Source: Candidatus Nanoarchaeia archaeon (GTDB lineage Archaea; Nanobdellota; Nanobdellia; Woesearchaeales; GW2011-AR9). From it: a stretch of DNA of 64,000 nucleotides. The position numbers and the translations under genes were made by a program. Each line of letters begins with the position of its first letter. Position 1 is the stretch's first letter. The notes beneath the pieces were generated by a model that was not told where the DNA came from, searched no databases, and saw only the letters and a list, made by a program, of their open reading frames with translations. The stretch lies in the NCBI GenBank assembly GCA_035290865.1, contig DATDTM010000018.1, positions 11,763-75,762 on the forward strand, in the 5' to 3' direction. This document shows positions 4,195 through 39,251 of the stretch, in pieces.

Positions 4195-4328
4195 TTTAGG
4201 TGGGGGGATTATTTAGTTTTTAAAGATTAGGAAAGTGGGGGATATATTAAATTAAAAGTAGCGAAACTCCAGCATTCATCCCCAACTATTAATAAAGGAG
4301 ATTTCTGCTTATTTGGTTTAAGAATAAG

Positions 4329-5465
4329 ATGAAAAATAGAGCACTAATAAACAAATTTTATATACCTCTGGAGAATAAATTTGATTTAAGAATGGCTTTC
4401 GCAGGAGTTTTGTATGGGATTGATGATCTCAGATATCAGAATATTGTAGTGCCTAAAATAAATGAGACTGAAGTATTGATAGAAGTAAAATCAGCAGGAA
4501 TCTGCGGCTCGGATATACCTCGAGTTAAGACTAAAGGAACTTATATCTTTCCAACAATTCCTGGCCATGAATTTGCAGGTATTGTCTTTGCTAAAGGAAA
4601 CAAAGTGCAAAAAGTCACGGTTGGAGACCGAGTCTCAGTTTACCCCCTTATCCCCTGCAAACAGTGCTCTTATTGCCGAGAAAACAAAGAAAACCTCTGT
4701 GATAATTATAATTATCTCGGTTCGAGATGTGATGGCGGTTTTGCTAATTATGTTAAATGCCCAGCTGAAAATGTGCTTAAAATACCGGAAAAAGTTACTT
4801 TTGAAGAAGCAGCCTTATTAGAGCCTATGGCCGTGGCTTTTAGGGGAGTTAAAAGAGGAAGAATTAGGCCTGGAGACAAAGTGATTATTTTTGGGTTAGG
4901 ACCGGTGGGATTGTTTGCTGCTCAATGGGCTAAACTTATGCAAGCCAGTTTAGTTATTGGCGTAGACAGGAACGAACATAAGCTAAAGATAGCAAGGAAA
5001 TGCGGAATAGATCAGGTTATTGACTCAGGCCGGGAAGATTACGATCAAAAAATTAAAGAGATCACTGGCTCAACAGGAGTTGATCTTGTCTTTGAATGCA
5101 GCGGGGCTAATCTCTTTCAGGAGAAGTCAATAGAACTAATAAAGAAATTCGGCACGATTTCACTGATTGGAAACCCTCAAGGGGACGTAATCTTCAAAGA
5201 AAAAAATTTTCAGTTGATCCTGCGAAAAGAAATTACTTTAATCGGAAATTGGAACTCTTTGATTACCCCGGATGAAAATGAGTGGGAAACGGTTCTGGCT
5301 GCTCTTGCTTCCGGAAAATTACTGGTTTCTCCTATAATCACCCACCGCTTTGAGCTTAAAGACATAAAACAGGTTTTTGATGATTTACAAGACAAAAAAT
5401 ATAAAGATTACTGCAAAGGGATATTTTCTATGGGGAAAGAACCCGGGTCAGAAGAAATTAGTTAG
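4329..5465 (+). CDS. Zn-dependent medium-chain dehydrogenase/reductase (sorbitol/polyol-phosphate dehydrogenase-like)
   Basis: GHE motif (PGHEFAGIV), catalytic Cys (CGSD), structural-Zn Cys cluster CKQCSYCRENKENLC, Rossmann GLGPVGL. Confidence 0.8.
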   Translation: MKNRALINKFYIPLENKFDLRMAFAGVLYGIDDLRYQNIVVPKINETEVLIEVKSAGICGSDIPRVKTKGTYIFPTIPGHEFAGIVFAKGNKVQKVTVGDRVSVYPLIPCKQCSYCRENKENLCDNYNYLGSRCDGGFANYVKCPAENVLKIPEKVTFEEAALLEPMAVAFRGVKRGRIRPGDKVIIFGLGPVGLFAAQWAKLMQASLVIGVDRNEHKLKIARKCGIDQVIDSGREDYDQKIKEITGSTGVDLVFECSGANLFQEKSIELIKKFGTISLIGNPQGDVIFKEKNFQLILRKEITLIGNWNSLITPDENEWETVLAALASGKLLVSPIITHRFELKDIKQVFDDLQDKKYKDYCKGIFSMGKEPGSEEIS

Positions 5466-5491
5466 AACAAATATCTTTATCGGAGGAAAAA

Positions 5492-6529
5492 ATGAAAGCC
5501 GCAATCTTAAAAGGGATTAAAGAATTAAGTCTAGAACAAGTTGCTAACCCTGCCATCAAGCCGAATACTATCTTATTAAAAGTTCATTCCTGCGCCATCT
5601 GCGGCTCTGACCTGCGCATTATGAGTTCAGGCAACCCCAGAGTGAAGTATCCAGCAATAATCGGACATGAGATTGCTGGAGAAATAATCGCTCTCGGGGA
5701 AGGTATCACTAAATGGAAGACAGGAGATAGGATTGCGCTGGGTGCGGATGTTCCTTGTGGAAAATGCGGACATTGCACTAATGGAAGAGGCAATTGCTGC
5801 GATGAAAATTATGCTATCGGCTATCAATTTTCAGGAGGCTTCGCAGAGTATTGCCTGCTTGAGCCGATGGTGGTAGATTATGGGCCAATCATTAAGATTC
5901 CTGAAGAGGTCAGCTTTGATCAGGCAGCTTTGATGGAGCCGCTCGCCTGCGTATTAAACGGATTGGAGTTAGCCCAGATGAAAGTTGGTAAAAGCGTATT
6001 AATCATAGGTTCCGGGCCAATCGGTTGCCTAGGCATCATGGCCGCTAAAGCTTTAAGCGCGTCCAAAGTAATCTTAGCAGAGATTGATGATAAAAGGTTA
6101 GAAGTAGCTAAGAAATTTTTGGCTGATTTTTATATTAATTCTAAAACTGAAAACCTAGTAGAAAGAATAAAAGAGATCACTTCTGGAAGAGGAGTAGACT
6201 TAGTTTTTACCATGTGTCCTTCGGTGGAAGCGCAGGAGCAGGCCATAGAATTAGTAGCTAAAAGAGGCTATGTAAATTTTTTTGGGGGCCTGCCTAAAGA
6301 TGCACGTAAAATCCAGTTTTCCTCCAACTCTATCCATTATAAAGAATGTTTTGTGATGGGCTCTCACGGCTCTACTCCTAGGCATAACCAGATCGCCATG
6401 GACCTGATTGCTAGCGAAAAAGTAGAAGTTCAGAAATTAATCACCCACAGATTTAGTCTGGATCAGATTGAAGAAGGATTTAAAGTAATGAAGAATATGG
6501 AAGGGTTGAAAGTGGTGATTAATCCGTGA
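5492..6529 (+). CDS. Zn-dependent medium-chain dehydrogenase/reductase, second paralog
   Basis: CAICGSDLR, IGHEIAGEI, CGKCGHCTNGRGNCC, GSGPIGCLG. SD GGAGG 8 nt upstream. Confidence 0.8.
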   Translation: MKAAILKGIKELSLEQVANPAIKPNTILLKVHSCAICGSDLRIMSSGNPRVKYPAIIGHEIAGEIIALGEGITKWKTGDRIALGADVPCGKCGHCTNGRGNCCDENYAIGYQFSGGFAEYCLLEPMVVDYGPIIKIPEEVSFDQAALMEPLACVLNGLELAQMKVGKSVLIIGSGPIGCLGIMAAKALSASKVILAEIDDKRLEVAKKFLADFYINSKTENLVERIKEITSGRGVDLVFTMCPSVEAQEQAIELVAKRGYVNFFGGLPKDARKIQFSSNSIHYKECFVMGSHGSTPRHNQIAMDLIASEKVEVQKLITHRFSLDQIEEGFKVMKNMEGLKVVINP

Positions 6530-6582
6530 CTATATTTTTTTTAAAAAGTAAAAATAATCTTTCAGGATAATAACCCATAAAA

Positions 6583-7491
6583 ATGATTCAATTAAAATTA
6601 GGCATCAATACTGGCTTCGCCTTAAACCGTTTTCCGCTTCCTGAAGAATGGATAAAAATTATTGGCGAAGATCTGGGCTTGCGCTATGTCCAATTGACTG
6701 CAGACCTAATTAATCCAAATTTAGGAGAGGAGATTGTCCAAGATCACATTAAAAGAATTAATCTTCTCCGTAAAAGATATAATGTAAAAATTGACGGCAT
6801 CATGACTGGGGCTTTTACCAGAGTGAACCATTTCTCCCATCCAGACCCCCAAGTTCGGGCTTATTGGCTTAACTGGTTCAGGAAATTTATTGATTTTGGA
6901 GTAGCCATCGGCGCAACTAACCTGTCTAGTCATTTGGGAATTATGTCTTATTATGATCTGCATCATCCAGAGCAGAAGCAGAAAGTTTTGCAGCAAACGG
7001 TAGAGGCCTGGAAAGAAATTGCAGCTTATGCTCAAGAGAAAGGAATGAAATATCTTAGCTGGGAGCCCATGTCCATACCTCGAGAGTACGGGGAAACCAT
7101 TGCTGAAACAAAAAGAATCCAGAAAATGCTTCAGGGCAGCGCCATTCCGATTAAATTATGTTTAGATGTGGATCATGGGGATGTCTCATCTCCCAATCCT
7201 GATGATAATGATCCCTATGCCTGGCTGAGAGAGTTTGCTAAGGAATCACCCTTTATCCATCTTAAGCAAAGCTTGAATGATAAAAGCGGGCATTGGCCTT
7301 TTACATCAGAAAACAATACTAAAGGAAAGATTACTGCCCAGAAAGTTATTAAAGCTTTAGAACAAGGCGGAAGTAAAGAGTCACTTCTTCTGCTGGAGTT
7401 CTCTTTTAGAGAGAGGGAACCTTTTGAAAGCAGAGTTTTAGAAGACCTGAGAGCATCGGTTGATTATTGGAGAGAATTTGTTAAAGATTGA
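6583..7491 (+). CDS. sugar phosphate isomerase/epimerase (xylose-isomerase-like TIM barrel, AP-endonuclease-2 fold)
   Basis: N-terminal LKLGINTGFALNRFP pattern and a ~300-aa size typical of IolE/IolI/L-ribulose-5-P 3-epimerase-like TIM-barrel enzymes. Assignment by motif resemblance only. Confidence 0.5.
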   Translation: MIQLKLGINTGFALNRFPLPEEWIKIIGEDLGLRYVQLTADLINPNLGEEIVQDHIKRINLLRKRYNVKIDGIMTGAFTRVNHFSHPDPQVRAYWLNWFRKFIDFGVAIGATNLSSHLGIMSYYDLHHPEQKQKVLQQTVEAWKEIAAYAQEKGMKYLSWEPMSIPREYGETIAETKRIQKMLQGSAIPIKLCLDVDHGDVSSPNPDDNDPYAWLREFAKESPFIHLKQSLNDKSGHWPFTSENNTKGKITAQKVIKALEQGGSKESLLLLEFSFREREPFESRVLEDLRASVDYWREFVKD

Positions 7492-7531
7492 ATATTAAAT
7501 TAATCTTTATTCTTTGAATCTGTTGATCTAA

Positions 7532-8293
7532 TTATTTTAATTGATAAGTAATCTCCGCAGCTTTTTCTTCTCCAGAGAAACGTAATCTCAAAAGATACTT
7601 AATAAATTTATGGATGATCTTTAGTTTAGAAAGATGTCCGAAATCCCAACTAGATTCACCAAATTTCCTAGGGTGAAATTCTACGGGAATAGAAATGATT
7701 CTCAGCTTTTCTTTTTTTGCTTTGTAAAGGACATAAAAGTCAAAGTTGAAGTCTAACGGCGGAAAGTTTAATTTTTCCAATAATTCCCGTTGAAATACTT
7801 TTGGCTGGGCATTGATCTCATGGAAATTTTTAAAGAATAAGCTGCTGGATAATAATTGCAGGCCGGTAGTCAGTATTTGGGGAATAATCTTTCTTTTTGT
7901 TCTTCTGCCTTTAATAAGATACAGGCTTGGATTTTCTTTTGCGGAGATTATCTGATAGGCGCGAATAACATCTAAAGGATCGCACTGCATATCTGCATGA
8001 GTATAGGCAAGAATCTCTCCCTGTGCCTGCTGTAAACCAAAGTAAATTCCATTACCATAACCAATATTCTTGGGTACAAGAACAGTCCTGGCAAAAGAAT
8101 ATTCCGGCTTTTTTAGTTCTAACTCAATTATTTTCTGAGAGCTGTCCGTAGAGCCGTTATTGATCAGGATTAATTCAGCATCACGATTAGGGATAACTTC
8201 TGCGAATCGCTTCAGGATGAGGGGGATATTTCTTCTCTCATTATAGCAAGGAACCACAATAGAAAGCCTGGGCAAAGGTTTTGGATTATGCAT
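7532..8293 (-). CDS. family 2 glycosyltransferase (DPM1-like)
   Basis: LSIVVPCYNERRNI...LILINNGSTDSS, the typical GT-A N-terminus with a DxD region. Confidence 0.8.
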   Translation of the reverse strand: MHNPKPLPRLSIVVPCYNERRNIPLILKRFAEVIPNRDAELILINNGSTDSSQKIIELELKKPEYSFARTVLVPKNIGYGNGIYFGLQQAQGEILAYTHADMQCDPLDVIRAYQIISAKENPSLYLIKGRRTKRKIIPQILTTGLQLLSSSLFFKNFHEINAQPKVFQRELLEKLNFPPLDFNFDFYVLYKAKKEKLRIISIPVEFHPRKFGESSWDFGHLSKLKIIHKFIKYLLRLRFSGEEKAAEITYQLK

Positions 8294-9734
8294 GGGTAGT
8301 TAATTTATCCTCCTCAATTGATTTAGTACCTTTAGCTGAGAACATAGATTTAAGATTAGAATAAACCTTTTTGCCAACCATGACTGGATTAATAATCTTG
8401 AACATATAGGGAATATTCAAAGGATTGGAAAAAGCCAGATAAAGATATTCTTTAAGGATTAAACGCGGAAAATTAAAATCTTTCAGACCTTCCGGAAGAT
8501 AAACTCTCTTTCCGTCTGAAAAGTTTTCCGGAAGTAATCCGTCTTTAATCTCTTTTTTTTCCACTAGCTCATTATAGATGGAGGTTCCCGGGAGAGGCTG
8601 AAAATTGTTCAGAAAAAAAAAATTAAACCTGCATTTCCGAATGAACTTGACGGTTTTTCGGATATCTTCAACCGTCTCTCCGGGATATCCCAAAATAAAG
8701 AAACCATGGACTTTTAAGCCCTCCTCTTTGATCTCTTTTACTTTTTGATAGATCTCATCAGGATTAACCTTCTTATTCATCCTCTGGAGAGTTTTCTCCG
8801 AACCGCTCTCCGGGGCAACAATCAGAGATTCCCAGCCAGCTCTTTTCATTAGTTTCATCAGCTCTCGGTCAGTTCTTTGGATCCTAATCCCATTGGGAGT
8901 AGCAAATTTTAAGCTTTTCAGATCTAAATCAATCACTGCCCTACAGAACTCTTTAGCAAACTCAATATTAAAAGTAAAATTGTCATCTACAATATTAATC
9001 ATTCTGATTCCTTTCTCATCATAAAGGTGTTTGACCCATCTCATCAGGTAGGGTATAGAATGAGTCCTGACTAGCTTTCCGTTCTGCAGGGAAGAGGTGC
9101 AGAAAGAGCAATTATAAGGACAGCCTCGAGTAGCCCAAATCGGGGCATTTTCTTTATATTTAGTATTAAGGCGATAGCCCTTTTTCAAATAGTCACTAAA
9201 TTCTATCGAATCATAATCCGGAAAAGTAATCTGGTCTAAGTCCACCTCTCTTCTCATCTCATTTTCAACAATTTCTCCTCGACTATTCCTATAGGCCAGC
9301 CCTTTTATCTTAGACCAGTCTGGATTTGCTTTTTCTATTTCTTCCAGAAATACGGGAAAGTCCAATTCTGCCTCCCCTCTAAAAATATAATTTACTAATT
9401 GGGGGTTGTTTTTCATGATCTTAGAGGCATAGGCAGTAGCATGAGCTCCGCCCAGAATAGTGATGATCTTAGAATTATGTTTCTTAGCGACAATAAGGAT
9501 ATTGATTGATTCTATATAGGTCGGTGACCAACAGGAAACTCCAATCAGATCGGGGTTAAATTCAGTTAACATTTTCTGTAAAGAGCCCGAGTCAGCTTTG
9601 GTCCCCTTTAAAGCGTAATCAAAAATCTTAATCTGATGCTTTTTATCTTTAATATTGCTTTTCAGATAGCCTAAAGAGAGAGGCAAGGTATAAGTTGTAT
9701 CAAAGCCGTAAGGCCAGATTAAAGCGATTTTCAT
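8286..9734 (-). CDS. B12-binding radical SAM enzyme (class B rSAM, probable C-methyltransferase or similar tailoring enzyme)
   Basis: N-terminal cobalamin-binding-like domain, then ATRGCPYNCSFCTSS (CxxxCxxC). Overlaps the downstream GT2 start by 8 nt. Confidence 0.8.
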   Translation of the reverse strand: MKIALIWPYGFDTTYTLPLSLGYLKSNIKDKKHQIKIFDYALKGTKADSGSLQKMLTEFNPDLIGVSCWSPTYIESINILIVAKKHNSKIITILGGAHATAYASKIMKNNPQLVNYIFRGEAELDFPVFLEEIEKANPDWSKIKGLAYRNSRGEIVENEMRREVDLDQITFPDYDSIEFSDYLKKGYRLNTKYKENAPIWATRGCPYNCSFCTSSLQNGKLVRTHSIPYLMRWVKHLYDEKGIRMINIVDDNFTFNIEFAKEFCRAVIDLDLKSLKFATPNGIRIQRTDRELMKLMKRAGWESLIVAPESGSEKTLQRMNKKVNPDEIYQKVKEIKEEGLKVHGFFILGYPGETVEDIRKTVKFIRKCRFNFFFLNNFQPLPGTSIYNELVEKKEIKDGLLPENFSDGKRVYLPEGLKDFNFPRLILKEYLYLAFSNPLNIPYMFKIINPVMVGKKVYSNLKSMFSAKGTKSIEEDKLTTHA

Positions 9735-9789
9735 CTTAGGAATTCTTTAATTTGGTTCTGCACTTAAAAATTTATCTCTCCTTGAATCA

Positions 9790-10644
9790 TTACTTCTTTG
9801 ATAAGAAATATCTCTCCCAAAACAAATATTGCTTTTTATTCTGGATTAAGGGATTAAACTGCTGATTTTCGTTAGAGTTAGAGCTTTTCTCTTTAAAAAA
9901 CTGTTCCCAAAGTTCATATTCTTTCAGCTCAGCAGGAGTTCCCCAACAGATCCATTGCTCCACATCAAAAATAACGCTTTTCTTTCCCAACTTATTAATA
10001 AATATAGGCAGGGCATCAACATAGAACTCATTATTAATCTGGAAATTCTCATTGATCATCAGATTGGCAGCGGCAATAAAATCTTTTGCTTTCCTGAAAT
10101 AAAAAGTAGCGGTGACTGCATGGTCATAGAAAGGATCGTCAGAAAGGGGAACTTTTACTGACATATCTCTGATGGTTAGTCCGTCTTCAACTAAGACTGC
10201 CCAACCATAAGATTGAGGGCTTTTGCGCATCTTTTCCATCTGGGTAAAAGTCCAGACAATACAGGAAATCTCCGGATTATTTACCAGGCTTTGATATTTC
10301 TTTGAATCATAAACATAGCCATTATCGCAGGCTGCGATGAACATGGGTTCGTCTGGCAATAAGTATGCTTGAGCTAATAAGCAGGTATTGGCCTGCCCCA
10401 AGGTAGTTTCATTCACGGAGATGATAATGGCCTTAGGAATCTCAGATTTGATAATCTGATCAATATGATGCTCTTGAAGATGTTCCTGCCTGACTATAAA
10501 AATCCATTTATCGCTAGGAGGCATATTTCTGATAGCTTGAATAATCATGGGCACTCCCGAGACAGGAATAAGAGGTTTAGGCAGGACATAGCCTTCTTTA
10601 GAAAATCTTGATCCTAGTCCTGCTAAGGGGATTACATTGACCAT
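9790..10644 (-). CDS. LicC/TarI-like sugar- or alcohol-phosphate nucleotidyl(cytidylyl)transferase
   Basis: VIPLAGLGSRF...KPL G-x-G-x-R signature of the NTP_transferase fold. C-terminal WGTPAE resembles the LicC C-terminus. Confidence 0.6.
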   Translation of the reverse strand: MVNVIPLAGLGSRFSKEGYVLPKPLIPVSGVPMIIQAIRNMPPSDKWIFIVRQEHLQEHHIDQIIKSEIPKAIIISVNETTLGQANTCLLAQAYLLPDEPMFIAACDNGYVYDSKKYQSLVNNPEISCIVWTFTQMEKMRKSPQSYGWAVLVEDGLTIRDMSVKVPLSDDPFYDHAVTATFYFRKAKDFIAAANLMINENFQINNEFYVDALPIFINKLGKKSVIFDVEQWICWGTPAELKEYELWEQFFKEKSSNSNENQQFNPLIQNKKQYLFWERYFLSKK

Positions 10645-10647
10645 TTC

Positions 10648-12249
10648 CTAATGCACCATCTTGCTATAGGGATGGTAAGACAAGCTGTCAAAATAATCCT
10701 GCCAATAGATAAATTCCTGATAATCCTGGGGAGTAAGCAAAGAGACAAACTTGTCTACCTCAAAAGCAGCCACTTTCTTTCCCTCTTTGATCAGTTCATT
10801 TACGGCAGTAAGGAAAGAATAAGTCGTAAAAGAAGTATACCCTTCTTGATCTAATCTGGTCATGTTTCTGCGGATGGAATTAAACAGGTCAGAAGCATGG
10901 CGATAAATGACTGTTCCGGTAAAAGCATGATCTCTCTCTGGACGTGAAGAAATAGTTGTTTTTTCATAAACTCTCTCCACTAACCCATTCTTAAATTTAA
11001 GGTAAGAATGATAATTAGGATTTCTGAGCACACATTCATGGTGAGTAAAAGTTAAGAGAATCACATCGGTTTCCTCATTTTCGAAAAGATGGGCTAATTT
11101 TCTCTCATCATAATCTAGAATGAAAGAACTGCCAGAAATACAAATCGGATTTTGTGGAAGAAGGTACTTTTCCGCATGAATAATGGTTTCAGCATTACCT
11201 TTGGTCTCAGTTTCTAGGTAAATGGTTTCAGAATGGGGAAAAATCCCTTTTAATAAGCTATCTAGCTGATATTCTGTTTTATGCTCTTCTAAACAAATAA
11301 AGATATTTCTGATCCCTCGAGGATGGAACTTAACGGTGGAAGCAATCAAGGGCTTGCCCATTAAAGGAATTAAAAAGTTGGGGGTATCAAAGCCTAATAA
11401 TTTGAAATCTTTCTTGTTCCCAGCAATAGGAAAAAGATTAGTAGTTTTAATATTTACATTGTTAAAACCAATCGCTTGGCCGGAACGGCGGAAAAAGAAT
11501 TCCGACCAGAATTTATAGACTTCATAATCTCTGGGTGTGCCCCAGCAGATAAATTTCTCTACTTCATAATTGAGGACCTTTAGCCCGTCTTTGATCATCA
11601 AGATGTAAGGATGGGTGATATACGTTTCGCCTTTAGTGTTCATATTTGCATCCATAACTTTTTGAGTATATCTTTTGAAATCAGACCATTTTCTGAAATA
11701 GTATGTTCCGGTAGAAGCATAATCATCCATCCTGTTCTCTTTAGTAAAAGGCTCTTTTTCTCTCAGCTCAGTTAAATACCTCTCTTGGTCTACTTTCAGA
11801 TAGGCATAATAAGTGTCCCCTAAAGAAGCAGGATGAAAACCTTGAAAAGAGATTACTGCCCCGTCGCATCTTCTCTGGTTAATCTCCGCTAAGAAATCGG
11901 AATAATTCCATTTCAAAGTAAAATCGCAATAATTAATGATTACTTCTTCATTATCCCCTACGAGATTAAATACGTTACTACAGGTGTAAAGCGGCCCACC
12001 CCTAATCTGATCAGTAGTTACTGAAACTATCTTTGATTTTGGCGCTAAGTTAAGGAGGACTTTTTTTAGCTGCGTTTCTTTTAGATGTTCTTCATGGCAG
12101 ATAAAGATAAATTCATCTTCGAATGAAAACATATTAATTACATGTTCTATCATTGGTTTTCCGTCAATCTCAACCAAAGGCTTGGGCCCATGGAAAGCAA
12201 CCTCATTGTAACGCTTACCACTTCCGGCCATGGGTATGATGATTTTCAT
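10648..12249 (-). CDS. tandem double nucleotidyltransferase (two LicC-like domains fused)
   Basis: Two repeats of the PMAGSGKRY / IPLMGKP ... ICWGTPRDYEVYKFW pattern. Start is taken at the internal ATG (12249) with an AGAGGAAG SD 8 nt upstream; the track ORF start at 12309 would overlap the upstream gene. Confidence 0.6.
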   Translation of the reverse strand: MKIIIPMAGSGKRYNEVAFHGPKPLVEIDGKPMIEHVINMFSFEDEFIFICHEEHLKETQLKKVLLNLAPKSKIVSVTTDQIRGGPLYTCSNVFNLVGDNEEVIINYCDFTLKWNYSDFLAEINQRRCDGAVISFQGFHPASLGDTYYAYLKVDQERYLTELREKEPFTKENRMDDYASTGTYYFRKWSDFKRYTQKVMDANMNTKGETYITHPYILMIKDGLKVLNYEVEKFICWGTPRDYEVYKFWSEFFFRRSGQAIGFNNVNIKTTNLFPIAGNKKDFKLLGFDTPNFLIPLMGKPLIASTVKFHPRGIRNIFICLEEHKTEYQLDSLLKGIFPHSETIYLETETKGNAETIIHAEKYLLPQNPICISGSSFILDYDERKLAHLFENEETDVILLTFTHHECVLRNPNYHSYLKFKNGLVERVYEKTTISSRPERDHAFTGTVIYRHASDLFNSIRRNMTRLDQEGYTSFTTYSFLTAVNELIKEGKKVAAFEVDKFVSLLTPQDYQEFIYWQDYFDSLSYHPYSKMVH

Positions 12250-12296
12250 TCTTAATCTTCCTCTATTAAATAATAAGTCGCCTTTCAAAAATAAAA

Positions 12297-13310
12297 TCAG
12301 TCCGGACACAAACTGCAGGTTAGATTGGAAGTATCTTTATCCAGATGACTTTTCCTAAAAGCTTTATATCTCTCCGAATTCCATAACTCCTCAAATGATT
12401 TTAACTCGAAGATATTACCTAAAGAATGGGCTTTATGCATGCGCAGACAACAAGGAGTGATCTCCCCTTCTACGGTAATAAATACGGATTTAAAAGGCCA
12501 ATAACAATTTCCTAATTTTTTCAGGCAATGCTTATAGCCAAGAAGGATTCCTTTTTTCAGTAATCTTAGCCTTAATCGGTTCACTTTTTTCCTGATCTGG
12601 GGGGAAAGCTTCCTGGTTTCTGCCACAAATTTAGCTGACTCTTTAAATTCCTCTTCTCCGGGAATCATCCAGTTCTCCACGTCAGCAACAGTGACATAAT
12701 CAACTTTAAGGGTGATAGCCATCTGATGGAGCTGGTCTAACTCCTGATAATTCTGATGGCTGATGACAAAATTAATGCCCACTGCTAGATTAGATTTTCG
12801 TTTGTTCCTTTCTTCGGTCAATAATTTAATTCCTTGTATGATCCGATCCATATCTGCCCCTCGCCTTAAATAATTGAAATTGTCTTTATTTACTGAATCA
12901 AAACTTATCGCTACATCATCAACATAGTCTAAGAGAATATGGCGGTATTTCTCGGAATTCAATAAAGTCCCATTGGTAATGGTCCAGATGCGGATTTTTT
13001 TCTGTTTAAACATTTCAAGCATGGGCACAATCTGGGGGTGAAGCAAGGGCTCACCCAGACCCTGTAATTTTACTGAATTCAGGTTTGGAAAAAAAGAAAT
13101 AATTTTGTCTGTCTCCTCAAGAGAAAGATCAAATTTCTTATAAGTTCCGATTACTTTATTTCTAGTACAAGTAATACAATTAAGATTGCATCTAACAGTT
13201 GGTTCCAGCTGAATGTAGGTGGGAATTAAAGCAATCTCTCCTTTATTGAACCGATCCAATTGAAGATGGAACTTTACTTTTTCAAATTTTCTGCGAATAG
13301 ATTTTAACAT
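12297..13310 (-). CDS. radical SAM enzyme with C-terminal SPASM/twitch Cys cluster
   Basis: CNLNCITCTRN (CxxxCxxC), GLGEPLLHP, C-terminal ...CCLRMHKAH... Cys-rich tail. Confidence 0.75.
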   Translation of the reverse strand: MLKSIRRKFEKVKFHLQLDRFNKGEIALIPTYIQLEPTVRCNLNCITCTRNKVIGTYKKFDLSLEETDKIISFFPNLNSVKLQGLGEPLLHPQIVPMLEMFKQKKIRIWTITNGTLLNSEKYRHILLDYVDDVAISFDSVNKDNFNYLRRGADMDRIIQGIKLLTEERNKRKSNLAVGINFVISHQNYQELDQLHQMAITLKVDYVTVADVENWMIPGEEEFKESAKFVAETRKLSPQIRKKVNRLRLRLLKKGILLGYKHCLKKLGNCYWPFKSVFITVEGEITPCCLRMHKAHSLGNIFELKSFEELWNSERYKAFRKSHLDKDTSNLTCSLCPD

Positions 13311-13909
13311 TTATTTTTCTCCTTTTTTTGTTCAGCCAGCTCTTCCCAATCATATATTTTATCAGTAAGCACGGCGTCAACCGGATTATCTTTTAAGATT
13401 TCTTTAACCGACTCGATTTCGTTCCGATTTAATAATTCTGGGGAAACTATGCAGAGTTTAAAATATTTTCTAAGAGTCTTGAAAGCATCATGTTCAACCG
13501 GTAAATGGGTCAGATTATCTACAAAAACCCATTCTAATTTTCCTTTTAAGTTAAGGCAGGTCTCAATACTTTCCATCTCAGAGAAACGAACCGCAATCTT
13601 ACTAATCCCCTGATTCACTAATTTAAAAATGAAAGGGGGAGTTACGTCAAGAAGAAAATAATCTCTAATCCTAAATTTATCCATTAATCCAATCACTAGT
13701 CTCTCTATTCCTTCGCACTTAATGTTTAGAATGAGATAAGCATGATGATAATGTTTTAGAAACTCTTCAAAATCTTCCCCCTCAAGGAAAGGTTCATGAT
13801 TAAGAATTATTCGATTATTGTATGCTCTTAAATCAACTTCAACTCCGAATTTTTTAGGGGTATTTTGGAGTTGTCCGATGGAATTTATTTGATGGTTTAT
13901 AATTAACAT
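13304..13909 (-). CDS. hypothetical protein (weak resemblance to glycerophosphodiester-phosphodiesterase-like TIM barrel)
   Basis: ORF in an operonic overlap chain (overlaps both neighbours by 7 nt). No decisive motif. Confidence 0.4.
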   Translation of the reverse strand: MLIINHQINSIGQLQNTPKKFGVEVDLRAYNNRIILNHEPFLEGEDFEEFLKHYHHAYLILNIKCEGIERLVIGLMDKFRIRDYFLLDVTPPFIFKLVNQGISKIAVRFSEMESIETCLNLKGKLEWVFVDNLTHLPVEHDAFKTLRKYFKLCIVSPELLNRNEIESVKEILKDNPVDAVLTDKIYDWEELAEQKKEKNKC

Positions 13910-14595
13910 AGATTCACCCTCTTTTCTCCAGCCAAAATTAGTTGATCTCTTTGTTTTAACATCTCCAAATTATTATTAAAACCTTCCCGAGTAAATAACC
14001 CAGAAGTACCGCCCACAAATATTTCCACACCCACTTTATTTAATAATTCTAGAGTATCTATATTTATCGAACCATCCCCAATTAATTTTAAACGAGGATT
14101 TTTCTCTTTGGAAAAGACATTAAACTGCCTAATTTTATCTAAGACTGATCTTTCAAAGGTTTGCCCCGTAAAGCCTGGCTGGACGGTCATAAACATAACA
14201 TAATCCAGCTTTTCAAGGTAAGGAAAAATCTTTTCCACCGGAGTTTTTGGATTTATTACTATCCCCACTTCCAGATTATGTCTCTTTACTAAGTCAATAA
14301 CGTAATTAGGATCCTCATCAGATTCTATATGGAAATAAATGATGTTTATTCCTGCCTCTTTTAGCCGTTTTATATATTTGGAAGGTTTACAGACCATTAA
14401 ATGGGCATCAAATTTTTTATGGGTTAATTTTCTCAGTTCTTGGATCAAATCAAAATTTAGGGCGATATTTTCTACAAATTCCCCATCCATAATATCAAAG
14501 TGGAACATATCGATCCCGGCTTTGAGCAAGGCATGAATGTCCCGATACAGATAAAGCTGGCTGGCGCACATTAAAGAAGCTGTAATTATTACCAT
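13903..14595 (-). CDS. ribulose-phosphate 3-epimerase family protein (pentulose/hexulose-phosphate 3-epimerase)
   Basis: HFDIMDGEFVENI, DAHLMV, MTVQPGFTGQTF, GDGSIN, FVGGTSGLF. These match the RPE signature blocks (HxDxMDGxFVPN, DVHLMV, MxVxPGFGGQxF, VDGGV, VxGSxxF). Confidence 0.75.
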   Translation of the reverse strand: MVIITASLMCASQLYLYRDIHALLKAGIDMFHFDIMDGEFVENIALNFDLIQELRKLTHKKFDAHLMVCKPSKYIKRLKEAGINIIYFHIESDEDPNYVIDLVKRHNLEVGIVINPKTPVEKIFPYLEKLDYVMFMTVQPGFTGQTFERSVLDKIRQFNVFSKEKNPRLKLIGDGSINIDTLELLNKVGVEIFVGGTSGLFTREGFNNNLEMLKQRDQLILAGEKRVNLC

Positions 14596-14637
14596 CCCTT
14601 ATTTTAATTACAATCTATTTATAATCATTATGAAAAT

Positions 14638-14790
14638 AAAAAATCCCAATCGCAGCATACGCGAACCTGCTGATTCCCTAGTTGCTTATCAGCAACAGCT
14701 GCAGGGTATTTTTAACCTCAAATGGTATCTATTCGTTGGTTATTTCTGCCGTTGCAAGCAACGGGGTATAATACCCATTTGAGGAATTAA
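14638..14790 (+). repeat. structured intergenic repeat, copy 1 (subtype A): shared 75-nt 5' module plus a long 3' hairpin
   Basis: 5' module aaaatcccaatcgcagcatacgcgaacctgctgattccctagttgcttatcagcaacagctgcagggtatt is shared with copies at 53116, 53869 and 60754. 3' arm cctcaaatggtat ... atacccatttgagg forms a 13-bp stem. Internal palindromes gttgct/agcaac and gttgca/agcaac. Confidence 0.8.
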
Positions 14791-14806
14791 TTATCTTTCT
14801 ATAAAT

Positions 14807-16252
14807 TCATCTAAAAGTCTTAAAAGCATATCTAGTCAAGTACTTTAATAAGTAACGATAAGAGGCATTAATATGATGCCTATTGGTGAAATAAATATCC
14901 GAAAACTTCCAGATAATTCGATACCCAACATTATCGGGTATCTTTAATAATATTTTTTTAATGAAAGGCCGCAAGAACGGAAATTTAATGTAAAAATGAC
15001 AAAAGCGTGATAATCTTAATATTTTCTGCCCTTCTTCATCCTTCCGAAAACAATCGTAAAAGTTTAAAGTCTTATTTCCAATCAAATCTCCGCCGATAAG
15101 TTTAGGATCGTACTGGCCAATGGATAAGCCATATTCGGTGATGTCTAGTTTGGGGAAAGGCTTAAAAATATTTCCTGCACAGATGGTATCTTTTGTAGAT
15201 AATTTTTTTAATAGTACTAAAGTTTCCTCTACCATTTCTAAAGTCTCACCGGGCAAACCCATCATAAACTGATAAGAAACTTTTAAATTATACTTATGCA
15301 GAAGAGCTGCAGCATGCTCTAATTTCTGATTAGAAGTCTGGGTCTTCCTTAGAATTTTCATCCTAAAATTCTCATTTCCAGCCTCAACACCCATCCTAAT
15401 CAGATAGCATCGATTAGTCTCCGAAATCTGTCTACAAAATTCTTCATTAACCTCATTCGCGCAGGCATTAATGGAAAAAGGCAGGTCTATCTTCTCTTTA
15501 TACAGATTTAGGAAATCAGAAAGCCATTTCTGGTTATAGGCTAAAGTGCTGTCGTTAAAGAAAATATTCTTATAGCCATACTTATTCTTAAGTATTAATA
15601 TTTCTTCAATTACCCTTTCCGGCTCTCTTAAGCTGCAATATTGCTTGCTCACCGGAAAGTACATCTCCCGGTACTTATGGTTGAAACAATAAGAGCAGTT
15701 ATAAGGACATCCTCTCCCCACCATTACCTGAACGAATTCTATATCCCGGAAATAGCGGTATTTTCTATAAATCTCCTGATCGTCAAAAGGCCGCTTATTC
15801 AAGTCAACAAAAGGAGCCAGCTCGTTTTTGATGATTTTATTTCCTTTCCTGACCCAAAGGTTCTGAATCCGGGAATGGTCCTTTTTCCCAGTCAGACAAT
15901 TACATAATTCTATCAAGGCCTCGTTGCCCTCACCACGGCAGAGAACATCAATATCTTTATTCTGCTCAATCATCTCCGGAAAAAAAGAGCAGTCGTATCC
16001 TCCTATGACAATAAGCACGGGCCATTTTTTCTCTTTTATCCTTCTGGCTATACGCAGCATAAAATTCCGATGAGAAGTAGTTATGGGGAAAGCTACAATT
16101 TCTGGCTTAATCCGCTTAATCTCCTCTAAAAGATAAGCATCTTTACCGATAGCGATATCTGTGCTATGCCCAGCTTTTTTAAGAGAAGCAGAAAGGTTCA
16201 TCACCCCCTGATAAGGGAACCAGATTTCCTGTAAAAATAATACTTTGACCAT
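14807..16252 (-). CDS. B12-binding radical SAM enzyme (second class-B rSAM)
   Basis: N-terminal B12-binding-like domain, then VGRGCPYNCSYCFNH. Confidence 0.8.
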   Translation of the reverse strand: MVKVLFLQEIWFPYQGVMNLSASLKKAGHSTDIAIGKDAYLLEEIKRIKPEIVAFPITTSHRNFMLRIARRIKEKKWPVLIVIGGYDCSFFPEMIEQNKDIDVLCRGEGNEALIELCNCLTGKKDHSRIQNLWVRKGNKIIKNELAPFVDLNKRPFDDQEIYRKYRYFRDIEFVQVMVGRGCPYNCSYCFNHKYREMYFPVSKQYCSLREPERVIEEILILKNKYGYKNIFFNDSTLAYNQKWLSDFLNLYKEKIDLPFSINACANEVNEEFCRQISETNRCYLIRMGVEAGNENFRMKILRKTQTSNQKLEHAAALLHKYNLKVSYQFMMGLPGETLEMVEETLVLLKKLSTKDTICAGNIFKPFPKLDITEYGLSIGQYDPKLIGGDLIGNKTLNFYDCFRKDEEGQKILRLSRFCHFYIKFPFLRPFIKKILLKIPDNVGYRIIWKFSDIYFTNRHHINASYRYLLKYLTRYAFKTFR

Positions 16253-16409
16253 GGAAAATATACCTTTTTTTCAGAGAAATATCCCTCAGGTTAGTATTAT
16301 ATAAAGATTCTGGTTTTGAAGTCCATAGGATAATTATTGATTAACCAGACCGTTTGAAACAATCTCTTATTTCAATACTTTTAAATAACCCAATTAATAC
16401 GAATTTAAA

Positions 16410-17585: not shown

Positions 17586-17586
17586 G

Positions 17587-39143: not shown

Positions 39144-39251
39144 TCTTTGGAAGAAATAACTCAATCCTATAAAGATTATTTTAGCCAAAGTTTAAATGAT
39201 TATTTTTTATTTCAATTAATTTTATTAAGTTATTAATCTTTATTAAAGAAT

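What the first reader, a model, noticed from the sequence alone, without database searches (positions are those of the whole stretch)
8286..16252. Unusual density of radical SAM enzymes (5 in the window, 2 with B12-binding domains) inside a glycosylation island
Class-B (cobalamin-dependent) rSAM enzymes at 8286..9734 and 14807..16252, SPASM/twitch rSAMs at 12297..13310 and 62515..63525, and a further one at 38130..39143. These are interleaved with nucleotidyltransferases, an RPE-like epimerase and GT2 genes, several in overlapping-ORF operons. B12-rSAMs in sugar pathways typically perform unactivated C-methylations (GenK/Fom3-like). SPASM rSAMs near sugar genes suggest epimerisation or dehydration on NDP-sugars. 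The combination implies heavily tailored, probably C-methylated, sugars.
Basis: partly seen in the sequence, partly recalled or inferred. Interest (0 to 1): 0.55.

Follow-up and report, generated by a model that had tools for sequence, protein, structure and literature searches.

The report
Radical-SAM-tailored sugar cassette, DPANN archaeon
Three of the five radical SAM enzymes sit in one operon that adds optional tailoring steps to a widespread, uncharacterised gene cassette, which most likely builds an unusual pentose-phosphate-derived sugar, loads it on a lipid carrier and decorates the cell surface; what the three enzymes actually do is still unknown.

Summary
All five ORFs are radical SAM (rSAM) proteins with an intact CX3CX2C motif, and two carry a B12-binding domain. 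None reaches the curated cutoff of any named family (HpnJ, BchE, PhpK, MgmA, Tes, viperin and others).

The window comes from a Nanoarchaeia (DPANN) metagenome-assembled genome (MAG) and is mostly a glycosylation island.

The three rSAMs at 8286-16252 (B12a, SPASM/twitch, B12b) lie in one co-directional gene block. The core of that block recurs in archaea and bacteria:
- nucleotidyltransferases;
- an ArnC/DPMS/GtrB-like GT2;
- a new no-Pfam family with a glycerophosphodiesterase-like fold;
- an EryC-like racemase (about 48% identical to Brucella EryC);
- two Zn-dependent polyol dehydrogenases;
- an Rpe or SIS isomerase;
- a polytopic membrane protein.

A reduced version sits on plasmids of E. 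coli, Hirschia and Azospirillum.

The rSAM content of the cassette varies from none to one, two or three. This window has the largest set seen. So these rSAMs are accessory tailoring enzymes for a sugar unit that is probably pentulose-phosphate-derived and polyprenyl-phosphate-linked.

C-methylation by the B12 enzymes is plausible but not shown. I found no sign of precursor peptides, porphyrin genes or lipid-tail genes. The rSAM at 62515 is in a separate glycan operon. The one at 38130 sits among nucleotide-metabolism genes, not sugar genes.

The parts
14807..16252 (-). B12b: class-B (B12-binding domain plus radical SAM) enzyme of unassigned family
   Evidence: Pfam B12-binding 49.8 bits and Radical_SAM 74.2 bits. 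CPYNCSYC motif. Best NCBIfam match is BchE at 105 bits against a cutoff of 481. Only 23% identical to B12a. Orthologs are found in cassette loci L105/L106 (667 bits) and L138 (587 bits, 54% identity).
13903..14595 (-). Ribulose-phosphate 3-epimerase family protein
   Evidence: Pfam Ribul_P_3_epim 179 bits. It passes the NCBIfam Rpe subfamily model NF004076 (190 bits, cutoff 165). It falls below the equivalog cutoffs for Rpe (183 vs 213) and D-allulose-6-P 3-epimerase (189 vs 271). A SIS-domain isomerase replaces it in L137 and L138.
13304..13909 (-). u201: a family with no Pfam model and a glycerophosphodiesterase / PI-PLC-like TIM-barrel fold
   Evidence: No Pfam, NCBIfam or PDB sequence match, even with a profile. 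135 homologs were found, all without a functional name in the public sources. The AF2 model has pLDDT 95.5. The best Foldseek hits are GDPDs with TM 0.6-0.73. H6, E24, D26, R28 and H38 are invariant. PGAP names the plasmid homologs 'PI-PLC/GDPD family protein'.
12297..13310 (-). rSAM with a truncated SPASM (twitch-like) domain
   Evidence: Pfam Radical_SAM 59.9 bits and SPASM 56.8 bits. Best NCBIfam match is the tungsten-cofactor maturase at 144 bits against a cutoff of 380. Invariant cysteines are 41/45/48 plus 269, 287, 288, 332 and 335. Its ends overlap u201. Orthologs sit in the same cassette in L137 and L138.
10648..12309 (-). NTdbl: tandem double nucleotidyltransferase (public gene calls give 527 aa)
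   Evidence: Pfam NTP_transferase matches in two stretches. The N-terminal domain has an AGSGKR signature; the C-terminal domain has a degenerate AGNKKD (my reading). Conserved in cassette loci at 286-859 bits.
9790..10644 (-). NT284: single-domain nucleotidyltransferase
   Evidence: Weak NTP_transf_3 match at 23 bits. AGLGSR signature. The plasmid NTases match it at about 295-303 bits.
8286..9734 (-). B12a: class-B rSAM of a large, well-conserved, uncharacterised family
   Evidence: Pfam domains. 548 homologs at E<=1e-10, with the top 120 at 49-83% identity across DPANN, Nitrospiraceae, Magnetococcus and marine MAGs. The family-specific motif NFQPLPGT is absent from the 79 paralog loci L011-L089. 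AF2 pLDDT 90 with a class-B fold. It overlaps the GT2 start by 8 nt.
7532..8293 (-). GT2 of the polyprenyl-phosphate glycosyltransferase type, soluble form
   Evidence: Pfam Glycos_transf_2. The best solved relatives are ArnC (three entries), P. furiosus DPMS and GtrB, aligned over residues 3-237. No TM segment. It forms a specific ortholog group within the cassette: 127-392 bits, against about 57 bits for the window's other GT2s.
6583..7491 (+). EryC-like xylose-isomerase-fold TIM barrel
   Evidence: 265 bits (about 48% identity by my count of the printed alignment) to PDB 4K3Z, Brucella EryC. EryC is a tetrulose-4-phosphate racemase according to PMC5992420, citing Barbier 2014. Conserved in cassette loci.
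5492..6529 (+). Zn-dependent polyol / ketose(-phosphate) dehydrogenase (ADH2)
   Evidence: Pfam ADH_N and ADH_zinc_N. Best NCBIfam matches are Tdh at 223 bits and IolM at 190 bits, both below cutoff. PDB relatives are Tdh and sorbitol, xylitol and galactitol-1-P dehydrogenases.
4329..5465 (+). Zn-dependent polyol(-phosphate) dehydrogenase (ADH1)
   Evidence: Pfam. NCBIfam Tdh 219, galactitol-1-P 5-dehydrogenase 218 and scyllo-inosose 3-dehydrogenase 214 bits, all below cutoff.
1774..4194 (-). Polytopic membrane protein (about 13 TM segments plus a 250-aa C-terminal domain); candidate extracytoplasmic transferase
   Evidence: No Pfam or NCBIfam match. Hydropathy profile. Ortholog in L105/L106 at 776 bits. 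A polytopic protein of 546-650 aa, not detectably homologous, takes the same place in other cassette variants.
61697..63525 (-). Separate glycan operon: rSAM (62515-63525) overlapping a GT2 (61697-62539); an FkbM methyltransferase (60820-61692) and a Wzx-like flippase (59137-60597) follow downstream
   Evidence: Pfam. SPASM-like cysteine pattern. Best NCBIfam match is 72 bits, far below cutoff.
38130..39143 (+). Fifth rSAM; not part of the sugar cassette
   Evidence: Pfam Radical_SAM only. Its neighbours are a TrmB regulator, a dCMP deaminase, an APRT-like PRTase and unknown ORFs. GC falls to 28.7% at 40-42 kb. Only weak viperin similarity: 48 bits against a cutoff of 180.

Best explanation
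The block 1774-16252 is one functional module for decorating the cell surface with an unusual sugar unit.

The conserved core has five kinds of part:
- an Rpe-like epimerase, an EryC-like racemase and two Zn-dependent polyol dehydrogenases;
- three nucleotidyltransferase domains;
- a GDPD-like phosphodiesterase-fold protein (u201);
- an ArnC/DPMS/GtrB-type GT2;
- a polytopic membrane protein.

The proposed route is as follows. The core converts a pentose-phosphate-pathway ketose phosphate, most likely ribulose- or xylulose-5-phosphate, into a nucleotide-activated unit. The GT2 transfers that unit to a polyprenyl (dolichyl) phosphate. After flipping, the membrane protein passes it to an S-layer, glycan or lipid acceptor. 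This is the three-component logic of the GtrABC, ArnC/ArnT and AglD/AglS systems.

B12a, the twitch-like SPASM enzyme and B12b are optional tailoring enzymes acting on this unit. They could act on the nucleotide-linked form or on the lipid-linked form.

The most likely chemistry:
- the B12 enzymes methylate unactivated sp3 carbons using methylcobalamin;
- the single-auxiliary-cluster enzyme carries out a BtrN-type two-electron oxidation or an epimerisation of a secondary alcohol.

Shown here: domain content, operon structure, cassette conservation, variable rSAM content, GT2 type and the u201 fold. Inferred: the identity of the sugar, the order of steps and every rSAM reaction.
For: Operon and domains.

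Cassette conservation. The same genes flank B12a orthologs in 11 other non-redundant loci (L009, L097-099, L103-105, L120-122, L125), which are marine, sediment or groundwater contigs. The same core, with a SIS isomerase in place of Rpe, occurs in a gammaproteobacterial MAG (L137) and in another archaeon (L138).

Variable rSAM content across cassette loci:

| rSAM content | Loci |
|---|---|
| B12a only | most loci (these were retrieved via B12a, so this is biased) |
| B12a + B12b | L105 |
| B12b + SPASM, no B12a | L138 |
| SPASM + a different B12 rSAM | L137 |
| none within 10 kb | L140, L141 and the three plasmids |
| B12a + B12b + SPASM | this window only |

Lipid-carrier logic:
- The GT2's best solved relatives are all polyprenyl-phosphate glycosyltransferases.
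- GtrA lies directly upstream of B12a in L098, L099, L120, L121 and L125.
- GtrA lies inside the plasmid cassettes.
- GtrA is fused to Rpe in L140.
- A polytopic membrane protein is always present.
- 13 of 18 B12a loci with adequate flanks have a GT2 within 3 kb.

Pentulose-phosphate origin:
- Rpe in this window.
- An AraD-like L-Ru5P 4-epimerase (242 bits, cutoff 251) in L140.
- A phosphoribulokinase-like domain (205 bits, cutoff 236) and a HAD protein resembling RuBP 5-phosphatase (168 bits) in the E. coli plasmid variant.
- EryC-like protein at about 48% identity.
- Dehydrogenases resembling polyol-phosphate dehydrogenases.

u201 fold.

Class-B fold of B12a. Four of the six closest solved proteins are methyltransferases.

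GMC oxidoreductase plus a class-III aminotransferase accompany B12a in L009, L092 and L093. From my own knowledge, this recalls the GenK/GenQ/GenB1 sequence of methylation, oxidation and amination.
Against: - No rSAM here can be assigned by homology. B12a scores equally against HpnJ (ring contraction), P-methyltransferases and BchE, and equally against methylases, AprD4 and OxsB by structure.
- The cassette has no kinase or mutase that would make an anomeric sugar-1-phosphate, which a GT2 donor normally needs. A P-loop kinase-like ORF at 17587-18897 is nearby but is seen only in this lineage.
- Enzymes acting on omega-phosphorylated ketoses suggest a CDP-alditol-type product instead. Such a product is normally transferred by TagF- or LicD-type enzymes, and none is present.
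- The membrane proteins of the different cassette variants are not detectably homologous and match no GT-C family.
- No GtrA is in the window's own cassette; the nearest is at 28731-29156.
- B12a orthologs also occur without the cassette. There they sit with a different GT2, an FAD oxidoreductase of family PRK07233, an LPG_synthase_TM protein and a PMT-type GT-C. So B12a's substrate need not be the cassette product.
- DPANN archaea are not known to make cobalamin (my own knowledge).
Confidence: 0.55

Rival explanations
1. B12a, and perhaps B12b, is not a methyltransferase. It catalyses a radical rearrangement of a lipid-linked sugar, for example ring contraction to a carbocyclic pseudosugar. 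HpnJ does this after the GT2 HpnI in hopanoid cyclitol-ether synthesis, and calditol synthase does it on glycosylated GDGT.
For: - HpnJ is nominally the top NCBIfam match for B12a, at 140.5 bits.
- The most constant neighbour of B12a across contexts is a lipid-carrier-type GT2, not any particular sugar-nucleotide gene. This fits action after transfer to a lipid.
- A PIG-L deacetylase lies in locus L008. It is a possible counterpart of the deacetylase HpnK.
- OxsB, a ring-contraction enzyme, and AprD4 are as close in structure as the methylases.
Against: - The HpnJ score is far below its cutoff of 577 and is tied with P-methyltransferases and BchE.
- Most characterised class-B enzymes are methyltransferases (review PMC12931638).
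- No deacetylase is present in the window cassette.
Confidence: 0.2
2. The cassette makes a nucleotide-activated alditol phosphate (a CDP-pentitol or CDP-tetritol, as made by TarI/TarJ, AbpA/AbpB or the C. jejuni CDP-glucitol enzymes). This is added as a phosphodiester substituent, in the manner of teichoic acids. u201 acts in phosphodiester transfer or trimming, and the rSAMs modify the alditol. Fom3 methylating cytidylylated hydroxyethylphosphonate is a precedent for such a step.
For: - The cassette holds only enzymes for omega-phosphorylated ketoses and polyols (Rpe, EryC-like, two Zn-ADHs) plus NTases, with no mutase.
- Weak IspD-type matches are seen here, and IspD is listed without a weak mark for the NTase next to B12a in L007.
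- u201 has a phosphodiesterase fold with conserved His, Glu and Asp residues.
- A 2H cyclic phosphodiesterase sits next to u201 in L140.
- A CofD phospho-alcohol transferase fragment lies downstream in L007.
Against: - No TagF-, LicD- or CDP-alcohol-transferase homolog is in the window.
- The always-present GT2 belongs to the polyprenyl-phosphate glycosyl-transfer type, which needs an anomerically activated donor.
- GtrA is frequently present.
Confidence: 0.15
3. The rSAMs modify isoprenoid lipids, either archaeal tetraether or archaeol tails or the polyprenyl carrier itself. The known lipid enzymes GrsA/B and Gmm (B12-binding) and Gms (SPASM/twitch) are of the same two kinds and also cluster together.
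For: - Archaeal lipid-modifying rSAMs are exactly these two kinds and are co-located (PMC11214058).
- Homologs are reported in DPANN: 39 Gms and 6 Gmm sequences.
- An HpnE/CrtD-related FAD oxidoreductase lies next to B12a in the second type of context.
Against: - Orthologs at 50-60% identity occur in bacteria not expected to make tetraethers: Magnetococcus, Nitrospiraceae and a gammaproteobacterial MAG.
- There is tight translational coupling to NTase, GT2 and Rpe genes.
- The Tes model is matched only by the 62515 rSAM, at 54 bits against a cutoff of 450.
- The ladderane-lipid B12 model scores 97 and 82 bits against a cutoff of 360.
- No lipid-synthesis genes are in the window.
Confidence: 0.06
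4. The SPASM enzymes are peptide (RiPP) maturases, or cofactor or metalloenzyme maturases, that merely happen to lie in the island.
For: The best NCBIfam matches are maturases, namely the tungsten-cofactor maturase at 144 bits and Geo_metal at 122 bits, and there are many RiPP maturase hits.
Against: - All scores are far below cutoff.
- No small same-strand ORF is adjacent, and the gene overlaps its upstream neighbour (u201) by 7 nt.
- Orthologs recur in the same sugar cassette in a bacterium and in another archaeon.
- Only five auxiliary cysteines are conserved, not the seven of a full SPASM domain.
Confidence: 0.03

Closest known systems
GtrA/GtrB/GtrC, ArnC/ArnT, CsbB/GtcA/YfhO and archaeal AglD/AglJ-AglS three-component glycosylation
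   Same: A small GT2 whose best solved relatives are ArnC, DPMS and GtrB. GtrA lies inside or next to the cassette in relatives. A polytopic membrane protein is present. The window also holds a clear Arn-like module at 49974-53036.
   Different: The GT2 has no TM helices. The membrane protein matches no GT-C family. The sugar-forming genes (Rpe, EryC-like, Zn-ADHs, GDPD-like) and the rSAMs have no counterpart in any described Gtr, Arn or Agl system.
Fom3 with the Fom1 cytidylyltransferase domain (fosfomycin), and GenK with GenQ and GenB1 (gentamicin)
   Same: A class-B rSAM encoded next to a nucleotidyltransferase, so the substrate may be nucleotide-activated. In L009, L092 and L093 B12a sits with a GMC oxidoreductase and a class-III aminotransferase, which resembles the methylate-oxidise-aminate sequence. 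These comparisons rest on my own knowledge of those pathways.
   Different: No PEP mutase is in the window. No sequence comparison with Fom3 or GenK was possible. B12a is a separate, uncharacterised family with no NCBIfam model reaching its cutoff.
HpnI/HpnJ/HpnK (hopanoid cyclitol ether) and calditol synthase Cds
   Same: A GT2 paired with a class-B rSAM that acts on a lipid-bound sugar. HpnJ is the nominal best NCBIfam match.
   Different: 140 bits against a cutoff of 577. No hopanoid or GDGT genes are present. An NTase and ketose-phosphate enzymes are present instead.
CDP-alditol pathways: TarI/TarJ (CDP-ribitol), AbpA/AbpB (CDP-arabinitol) and C. jejuni HS:5 CDP-6-glucitol
   Same: An NTase combined with a medium-chain Zn dehydrogenase acting on pentulose or hexulose phosphates, with Rpe as the feeder enzyme.
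   Different: No alditol-phosphate transferase of the TagF or LicD type is present. There is an extra EryC-like racemase, a GDPD-like protein, a lipid-carrier GT2 and the rSAMs.
BtrN (twitch-domain rSAM dehydrogenase of butirosin biosynthesis)
   Same: One auxiliary-cluster cysteine set. The spacing C269-x17/18-C287/288-x43/44-C332-x2-C335 resembles what I recall for BtrN's ligands. The context is a sugar or cyclitol pathway.
   Different: No sequence hit to BtrN in the PDB at E<=0.001. The resemblance in spacing is from memory and was not tested.
Brucella EryC, tetrulose-4-phosphate racemase (PDB 4K3Z)
   Same: 265 bits over the full length, about 48% identity.
   Different: It sits in a biosynthetic glycan cassette, not an erythritol catabolic operon. 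EryA, EryB, TpiA2 and RpiB partners are absent.

Membership tests
Class B (cobalamin-dependent) radical SAM | N-terminal Rossmann-type cobalamin-binding domain followed by a radical SAM core with a CX3CX2C motif | tested here: met
   B12-binding scores 46.7 and 49.8 bits against a cutoff of 32.1. Motifs lie at residues 205 and 182. The B12a model superposes on MgmA, TsrM, TokK, CysS and OxsB with TM 0.62-0.71.
Class B (cobalamin-dependent) radical SAM | Binds cobalamin and uses it in catalysis (AprD4 has the fold but does not) | not testable with these tools
   Needs purified protein. No cobalamin riboswitch or transporter is in the window.
Named class-B equivalogs (HpnJ, BchE, PhpK/Sden_1168, MgmA, HpnR, BzaD, KedN5, ladderane lipid) | Score at or above the NCBIfam curated cutoff | tested here: not met
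   B12a's best score is 140 bits against 577. B12b's best is 105 bits against 481.
SPASM/twitch radical SAM | C-terminal cysteine-rich domain binding one (twitch) or two (SPASM) auxiliary clusters | tested here: met
   PF13186 scores 56.8 bits for 12297-13310. Five cysteines are invariant in 16 homologs, which fits one auxiliary cluster. For 62515-63525 there is only a cysteine pattern.
RiPP / peptide maturase rSAM | Adjacent precursor-peptide gene and a family score above cutoff | tested here: not met
   No same-strand small ORF. All maturase models score far below cutoff. Orthologs lie in sugar cassettes.
Polyprenyl-phosphate glycosyltransferase (GtrB/ArnC/DPMS type GT2) | GT-A catalytic domain with interface helices homologous to ArnC, DPMS and GtrB | tested here: met
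   The top PDB hits are ArnC (three entries), DPMS and GtrB, aligned over residues 3-237.
Polyprenyl-phosphate glycosyltransferase (GtrB/ArnC/DPMS type GT2) | C-terminal TM helices, and actual transfer to a polyprenyl phosphate | tested here: not met
   No hydrophobic segment in the 253-aa protein. Some members, such as human DPM1, also lack TM helices (my own knowledge). Activity is not testable here.
GT-C transferase (the GtrC/ArnT/PMT role) | Polytopic membrane protein homologous to a GT-C family | tested here: inconclusive
   1774-4194 has about 13 TM segments but no Pfam or NCBIfam match. It is not homologous to its counterparts in other cassette variants.
Glycerophosphodiester phosphodiesterase / PI-PLC-like superfamily | TIM-barrel fold with catalytic His/Glu/Asp/His residues | tested here: met
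   Fold: Foldseek hits to GDPDs with TM 0.6-0.73 and probability 1.0. Invariant H6, E24, D26 and H38, whose match to the GDPD catalytic residues is my reading. The Pfam GDPD model itself is not matched, so this is a new family within the fold.
CDP-alditol (TarIJ/AbpAB-type) pathway | NTase plus Zn-ADH plus an alditol-phosphate transferase (TagF or LicD) | tested here: not met
   The NTases and Zn-ADHs are present. No TagF or LicD homolog exists among the window ORFs.
Archaeal lipid-modifying rSAMs (Tes, Gms, GrsA/B, Gmm) | Family-level similarity, or the COG4001 domain for Gms | tested here: inconclusive
   The Tes cutoff is not met. No models or sequences for Gms, Grs or Gmm were available. 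Bacterial orthologs and the sugar-operon context argue against membership.
Prokaryotic viperin (pVip) | NCBIfam or PADLOC family-level score | tested here: not met
   48 bits against a cutoff of 180 for 38130-39143. PADLOC scores are 48 and 60 bits, which is general rSAM similarity.

The most novel reading that the evidence does not exclude
B12a, B12b and the twitch enzyme carry out radical chemistry not yet described for glycans. The chemistry could be C-methylation, oxidation or carbocycle formation. The substrate would be a pentulose-derived sugar while it is bound to a nucleotide or to polyprenyl phosphate. The enzymes would work inside a previously unrecognised, cross-domain three-component glycosylation cassette defined by a new GDPD-like family. 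DPANN archaea and many uncultivated anaerobes would then carry a class of rSAM-tailored surface sugars unknown to glycobiology, built by mixing and matching rSAM add-ons.
Probability: 0.35. Interest if true: 0.7.

Novelty: new variant of a known kind. Interest (0 to 1): 0.5.

Why it matters
Class-B radical SAM enzymes are known from antibiotics, cofactors, lipids and protein modification. They are not known from cell-surface glycan pathways: literature searches and a 2026 review list none.

This work defines three things:
- a large B12-rSAM family (at least 548 relatives) whose steadiest partner is a lipid-carrier GT2;
- a conserved cassette containing a protein family with no Pfam model;
- a natural series of cassette variants with none, one, two or three rSAMs.

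That series makes the chemistry testable by adding genes one at a time. An rSAM-free version on plasmids of cultivable bacteria (E. coli, Hirschia baltica ATCC 49814, Azospirillum brasilense) offers a chassis for doing so.

For DPANN biology, the result points to elaborate, cobalamin-requiring surface decoration in organisms that depend on hosts for most metabolites.

Tried and rejected
- **Genome-contig scan with the full B12a alignment.** All but one locus were 24-36% paralogs, so they said nothing about context. I recovered orthologs with a C-terminal, family-specific alignment against metagenome contigs.
- **Assigning B12a by curated families, PDB sequence or structure.** All characterised relatives are equally distant, so this does not separate methylases from non-methylases.
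- **u201 by sequence.** Pfam at E<=5, NCBIfam and a PDB profile search at E<=10 all gave nothing. Only structure prediction worked.
- **afdb50 fold library.** Not available.
- **Homology among the cassette's membrane proteins, or to the window's PMT_2 proteins.** None found.
No PEP mutase is in the window. A PepM-cytidylyltransferase fusion occurs only beside the cassette in the Tara locus L141.
- **Cyclitol or inositol reading.** It rests on IolM at 190-214 bits and IolO at only 22 bits, and the GFO/IDH/MocA gene is specific to this lineage. I did not pursue it.
- **Defence-system reading of the 38130 and 62515 rSAMs.** Only weak pVip similarity.
- **Rfam scan of the window for riboswitches.** No match.
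- **Literature searches.** Searches for rSAM or B12 enzymes in polysaccharide, N-glycan, CDP-ribitol or DPANN contexts found nothing relevant. A search on the mycobacterial methylthioxylose genes gave no usable sequence information.

Full report
**1. What the window is**

The window has about 36% GC and no tRNA genes or Rfam matches. Identical genes lie on groundwater-metagenome contigs. One public source names the 201-aa protein as coming from a 'Candidatus Nanoarchaeia archaeon' MAG. A TrmB regulator and an intein in a DegT aminotransferase fit an archaeon.

Pfam scans of nearly all ORFs of 100 aa or more show a glycosylation island. It holds:
- five GT2s, a GT4 and two PMT_2 GT-C proteins;
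- GtrA and two Wzx-like flippases;
- two 4,6-dehydratases and a TylC3-type C-methyltransferase;
- an Arn-like formyltransferase/GT2/GT-C module.

**2. The observation**

All five ORFs are radical SAM proteins at the stated coordinates, each with one CX3CX2C motif.
- 8286-9734 (B12a) and 14807-16252 (B12b) have B12-binding domains above Pfam's cutoff. They are only 23% identical to each other.
- 12297-13310 has a SPASM domain.
- 62515-63525 has a SPASM-like cysteine pattern but no Pfam SPASM hit.
- 38130-39143 has neither.

None reaches the curated cutoff of any NCBIfam family. B12a's best scores are HpnJ 140, Sden_1168 139, BchE 138 and PhpK 124 bits, against cutoffs of 480-600. By PDB sequence search, the closest solved protein to both B12 enzymes is 9CCB. 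That entry is the MCR glutamine C-methyltransferase MgmA/QCMT.

**3. Operon anatomy**

The minus strand reads B12b, a 211-nt gap, then the following:

| Gene | Coordinates | Junction with the next gene |
|---|---|---|
| Rpe-like | 13903-14595 | overlaps |
| u201 | 13304-13909 | overlaps |
| SPASM rSAM | 12297-13310 | abuts |
| double NTase | 10648-12309 | 3-nt gap |
| NTase | 9790-10644 | 55-nt gap |
| B12a | 8286-9734 | overlaps by 8 nt |
| GT2 | 7532-8293 | end of block |

Further along:
- an EryC-like TIM barrel and two Zn-ADHs lie on the plus strand (4329-7491), convergent with the block;
- an 806-aa protein with about 13 TM segments lies on the minus strand (1774-4194).

AT-rich TATA-like elements lie upstream of B12b and of the Rpe gene (my reading). 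The intergenic gap holds no same-strand small ORF.

**4. Comparative evidence**

B12a belongs to a large family: 548 hits at E<=1e-10, with the top 120 at 49-83% identity. It spans DPANN, Nitrospiraceae, Magnetococcus and marine organisms.

A first scan of species-representative genomes returned only distant paralogs. A second scan, using the family-specific C-terminal motif NFQPLPGT, gave 47 metagenome loci. After removing duplicates, 37 ortholog loci were clustered by neighbourhood.

*Context 1: the cassette.* About a dozen loci carry the same cassette as the window: Rpe, u201, double NTase, GT2, EryC-like protein and two Zn-ADHs. It is often a single ten-gene co-directional run that starts with GtrA and includes a 650-aa polytopic protein.

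*Context 2.* Here B12a is joined to a different GT2, an FAD oxidoreductase (NCBIfam PRK07233, 448 bits), LPG_synthase_TM and a PMT-type GT-C. A GMC oxidoreductase with a class-III aminotransferase is often present too.

Thirteen of 18 loci with adequate flanks have a GT2 within 3 kb of B12a.

Searches seeded with other cassette genes:
- *SPASM enzyme.* It has about 35 homologs above 43% identity. The same cassette, with a SIS isomerase in place of Rpe, appears in a gammaproteobacterial MAG (L137) and in another archaeon (L138). L138 has a B12b ortholog (54% identity) but no B12a.
- *u201.* This gave cassettes with no rSAM at all (L140, L141) or with a different B12 rSAM (L142).

The table summarises the pattern. 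The core is constant and the rSAM content varies. Only this window has all three rSAMs.

**5. The core genes**

*u201.* It has no sequence match to any Pfam, NCBIfam or PDB entry. Its AF2 model (pLDDT 95.5) is a TIM barrel closest to glycerophosphodiesterases, and its His, Glu and Asp residues are invariant.

*GT2.* Its best solved relatives are ArnC, DPMS and GtrB.

*TIM barrel at 6583-7491.* It is about 48% identical to Brucella EryC, a tetrulose-4-phosphate racemase.

*Zn-ADHs.* They resemble threonine, galactitol-1-phosphate, scyllo-inosose, sorbitol and xylitol dehydrogenases, all below cutoff.

*Plasmid version in cultured bacteria.* tblastn against plasmids found u201 homologs at 41-44% identity on plasmids of E. 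coli, Hirschia baltica and Azospirillum brasilense. PGAP annotates them as PI-PLC/GDPD family proteins. They sit in the order NTase-GtrA-GT2-u201, followed by four more genes:
- a phosphoribulokinase-like fusion (205 bits, cutoff 236);
- a HAD protein resembling RuBP 5-phosphatase (168 bits);
- a class II aldolase-family protein;
- a polytopic membrane protein.

L140 has an AraD-like L-Ru5P 4-epimerase (242 bits, cutoff 251) and a GtrA-Rpe fusion.

Taken together, the front-end enzymes of the variants I examined act on pentulose phosphates. This is my inference from family assignments.

**6. Mechanism**

The best-supported reading has four steps:
1. A pentulose-phosphate-derived unit is nucleotide-activated.
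2. The GT2 transfers it to a polyprenyl phosphate.
3. It is flipped across the membrane.
4. The polytopic protein passes it to an acceptor.

The rSAMs act as optional tailoring enzymes.

B12a keeps 50-60% identity across contexts whose sugar-forming genes differ but which share a lipid-carrier GT2. That suggests it acts on the lipid-linked sugar or on the immediate donor. ArnD, DprE1/E2 and HpnJ act at that level (my own knowledge).

Methylation is the commonest class-B chemistry, and four of the six closest structures are methylases. The same search shows AprD4 and OxsB at equal distance, so I rate methylation as more likely than not and nothing stronger.

The SPASM enzyme conserves cysteines for one auxiliary cluster. 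A BtrN-like oxidation is the working guess.

One weakness remains. The cassette lacks an obvious route to an anomeric sugar-1-phosphate, so a CDP-alditol-type product stays a live rival.

**7. The other two rSAMs**

62515-63525 overlaps a GT2. An FkbM methyltransferase and a flippase follow, so it is glycan-related but belongs to a separate operon.

38130-39143 lies beside a TrmB regulator, a dCMP deaminase, an APRT-like PRTase and unknown ORFs, in a 28.7% GC stretch. It shows only weak viperin similarity. I do not count it as part of the sugar chemistry.

**8. Rivals and novelty**

Four alternatives were considered:
- *Peptide maturase.* Unlikely.
- *Porphyrin enzyme.* Unlikely.
- *Lipid-tail modification.* This deserves mention because archaeal GDGT enzymes are of the same two rSAM kinds and also cluster. 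Against it stand the bacterial orthologs and the tight coupling to NTase and GT2 genes.
- *Non-methylating rearrangement.* This remains the main alternative reading for B12a.

I found no paper describing rSAM or B12 enzymes in surface-glycan pathways of this type.

I rate the finding as a new variant of known kinds, namely class-B and twitch rSAMs combined with three-component glycosylation. Its interest is moderate. It becomes experimentally approachable because an rSAM-free version exists in cultivable bacteria.

Noticed in passing
window 30623-32929 (-): A DegT/DnrJ/EryC1-type sugar aminotransferase is interrupted by an intein (Intein_splicing and PT-HINT) with a DUF559 endonuclease-like insert. 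The aminotransferase domain is split into two stretches.
   Followed up: no
window 49974-54946: An Arn-like module: a PMT_2 GT-C, a Formyl_trans_N protein and an ArnC-like GT2 on the minus strand, followed by a 5-formyl-THF cyclo-ligase and FolD on the plus strand. This suggests a formamido-sugar loaded on a lipid carrier, with its own formyl-donor supply.
   Followed up: no
window 55982-59144 (+): A 772-aa fusion of a pyruvate-kinase barrel, a PUA_2 domain and ATP sulfurylase, followed by an inositol-monophosphatase/CysQ-like protein. It may supply activated sulfate for glycan sulfation.
   Followed up: no
window 37248-42367: The fifth rSAM (38130-39143) sits with a divergent TrmB regulator, a dCMP deaminase, an APRT-like phosphoribosyltransferase and three ORFs with no family match. 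GC falls to 28.7% in this stretch. The content looks nucleotide-related rather than sugar-related, and viperin similarity is only weak.
   Followed up: partly
window 25254-26227 (-): An overlapping HEPN and minimal nucleotidyltransferase pair. It is a toxin-antitoxin-like pair and matches the PADLOC candidate system PDC-M05.
   Followed up: no
window 47667-48539 (+): A transposase with an rve integrase core and HTH domains, inside the island between a 661-aa polytopic protein and an MFS transporter.
   Followed up: no
window 26328-27227 (-): A second 4,6-dehydratase-family ORF starts at TTG and aligns only from profile position 27. It may lack the N-terminal nucleotide-binding motif, through a mis-called start or truncation. 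It lies next to a TylC3-type NDP-hexose C-methyltransferase at 27411-28700.
   Followed up: no
L143 (E. coli plasmid NZ_CP145712.1, 6022-14984); L144 (Hirschia baltica pHbal01); L145 (Azospirillum brasilense p5): A reduced, rSAM-free version of the cassette occurs on plasmids of cultured bacteria. Its genes are an NTase, GtrA, a GT2, a u201-like protein, a PRK-like kinase fusion, a RuBP-5-phosphatase-like HAD protein, a class II aldolase-family protein and a polytopic membrane protein. In E. coli it is present in 2 of 5,426 complete genomes, both times on a plasmid of about 33 kb (IncR where typed).
   Followed up: partly
L105 and L122 (metagenome contigs Ga0209542_10005672 and Ga0209542_10001372): In two close cassette relatives, a further B12-rSAM (524 aa) lies next to a 119-aa PterinBD-DUF4346 protein. 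This hints at a pterin-linked methyl supply for a B12 enzyme. The pair is absent from the window.
   Followed up: no
L141 (Tara Oceans contig), locus 15418-17818: The cassette lies next to phosphonate-biosynthesis genes: a PEP mutase fused to a cytidylyltransferase, and a phosphonopyruvate decarboxylase. A sulfotransferase is also nearby. No rSAM lies within 10 kb.
   Followed up: no
window 17587-18897 (-): A 436-aa protein with a weak NTP_transf_5-like N-terminal match and a P-loop (GPDGSGKST) giving weak thymidylate-kinase and PRK-type hits. It could be the kinase missing from the cassette. It was found only on contigs of this same organism.
   Followed up: partly
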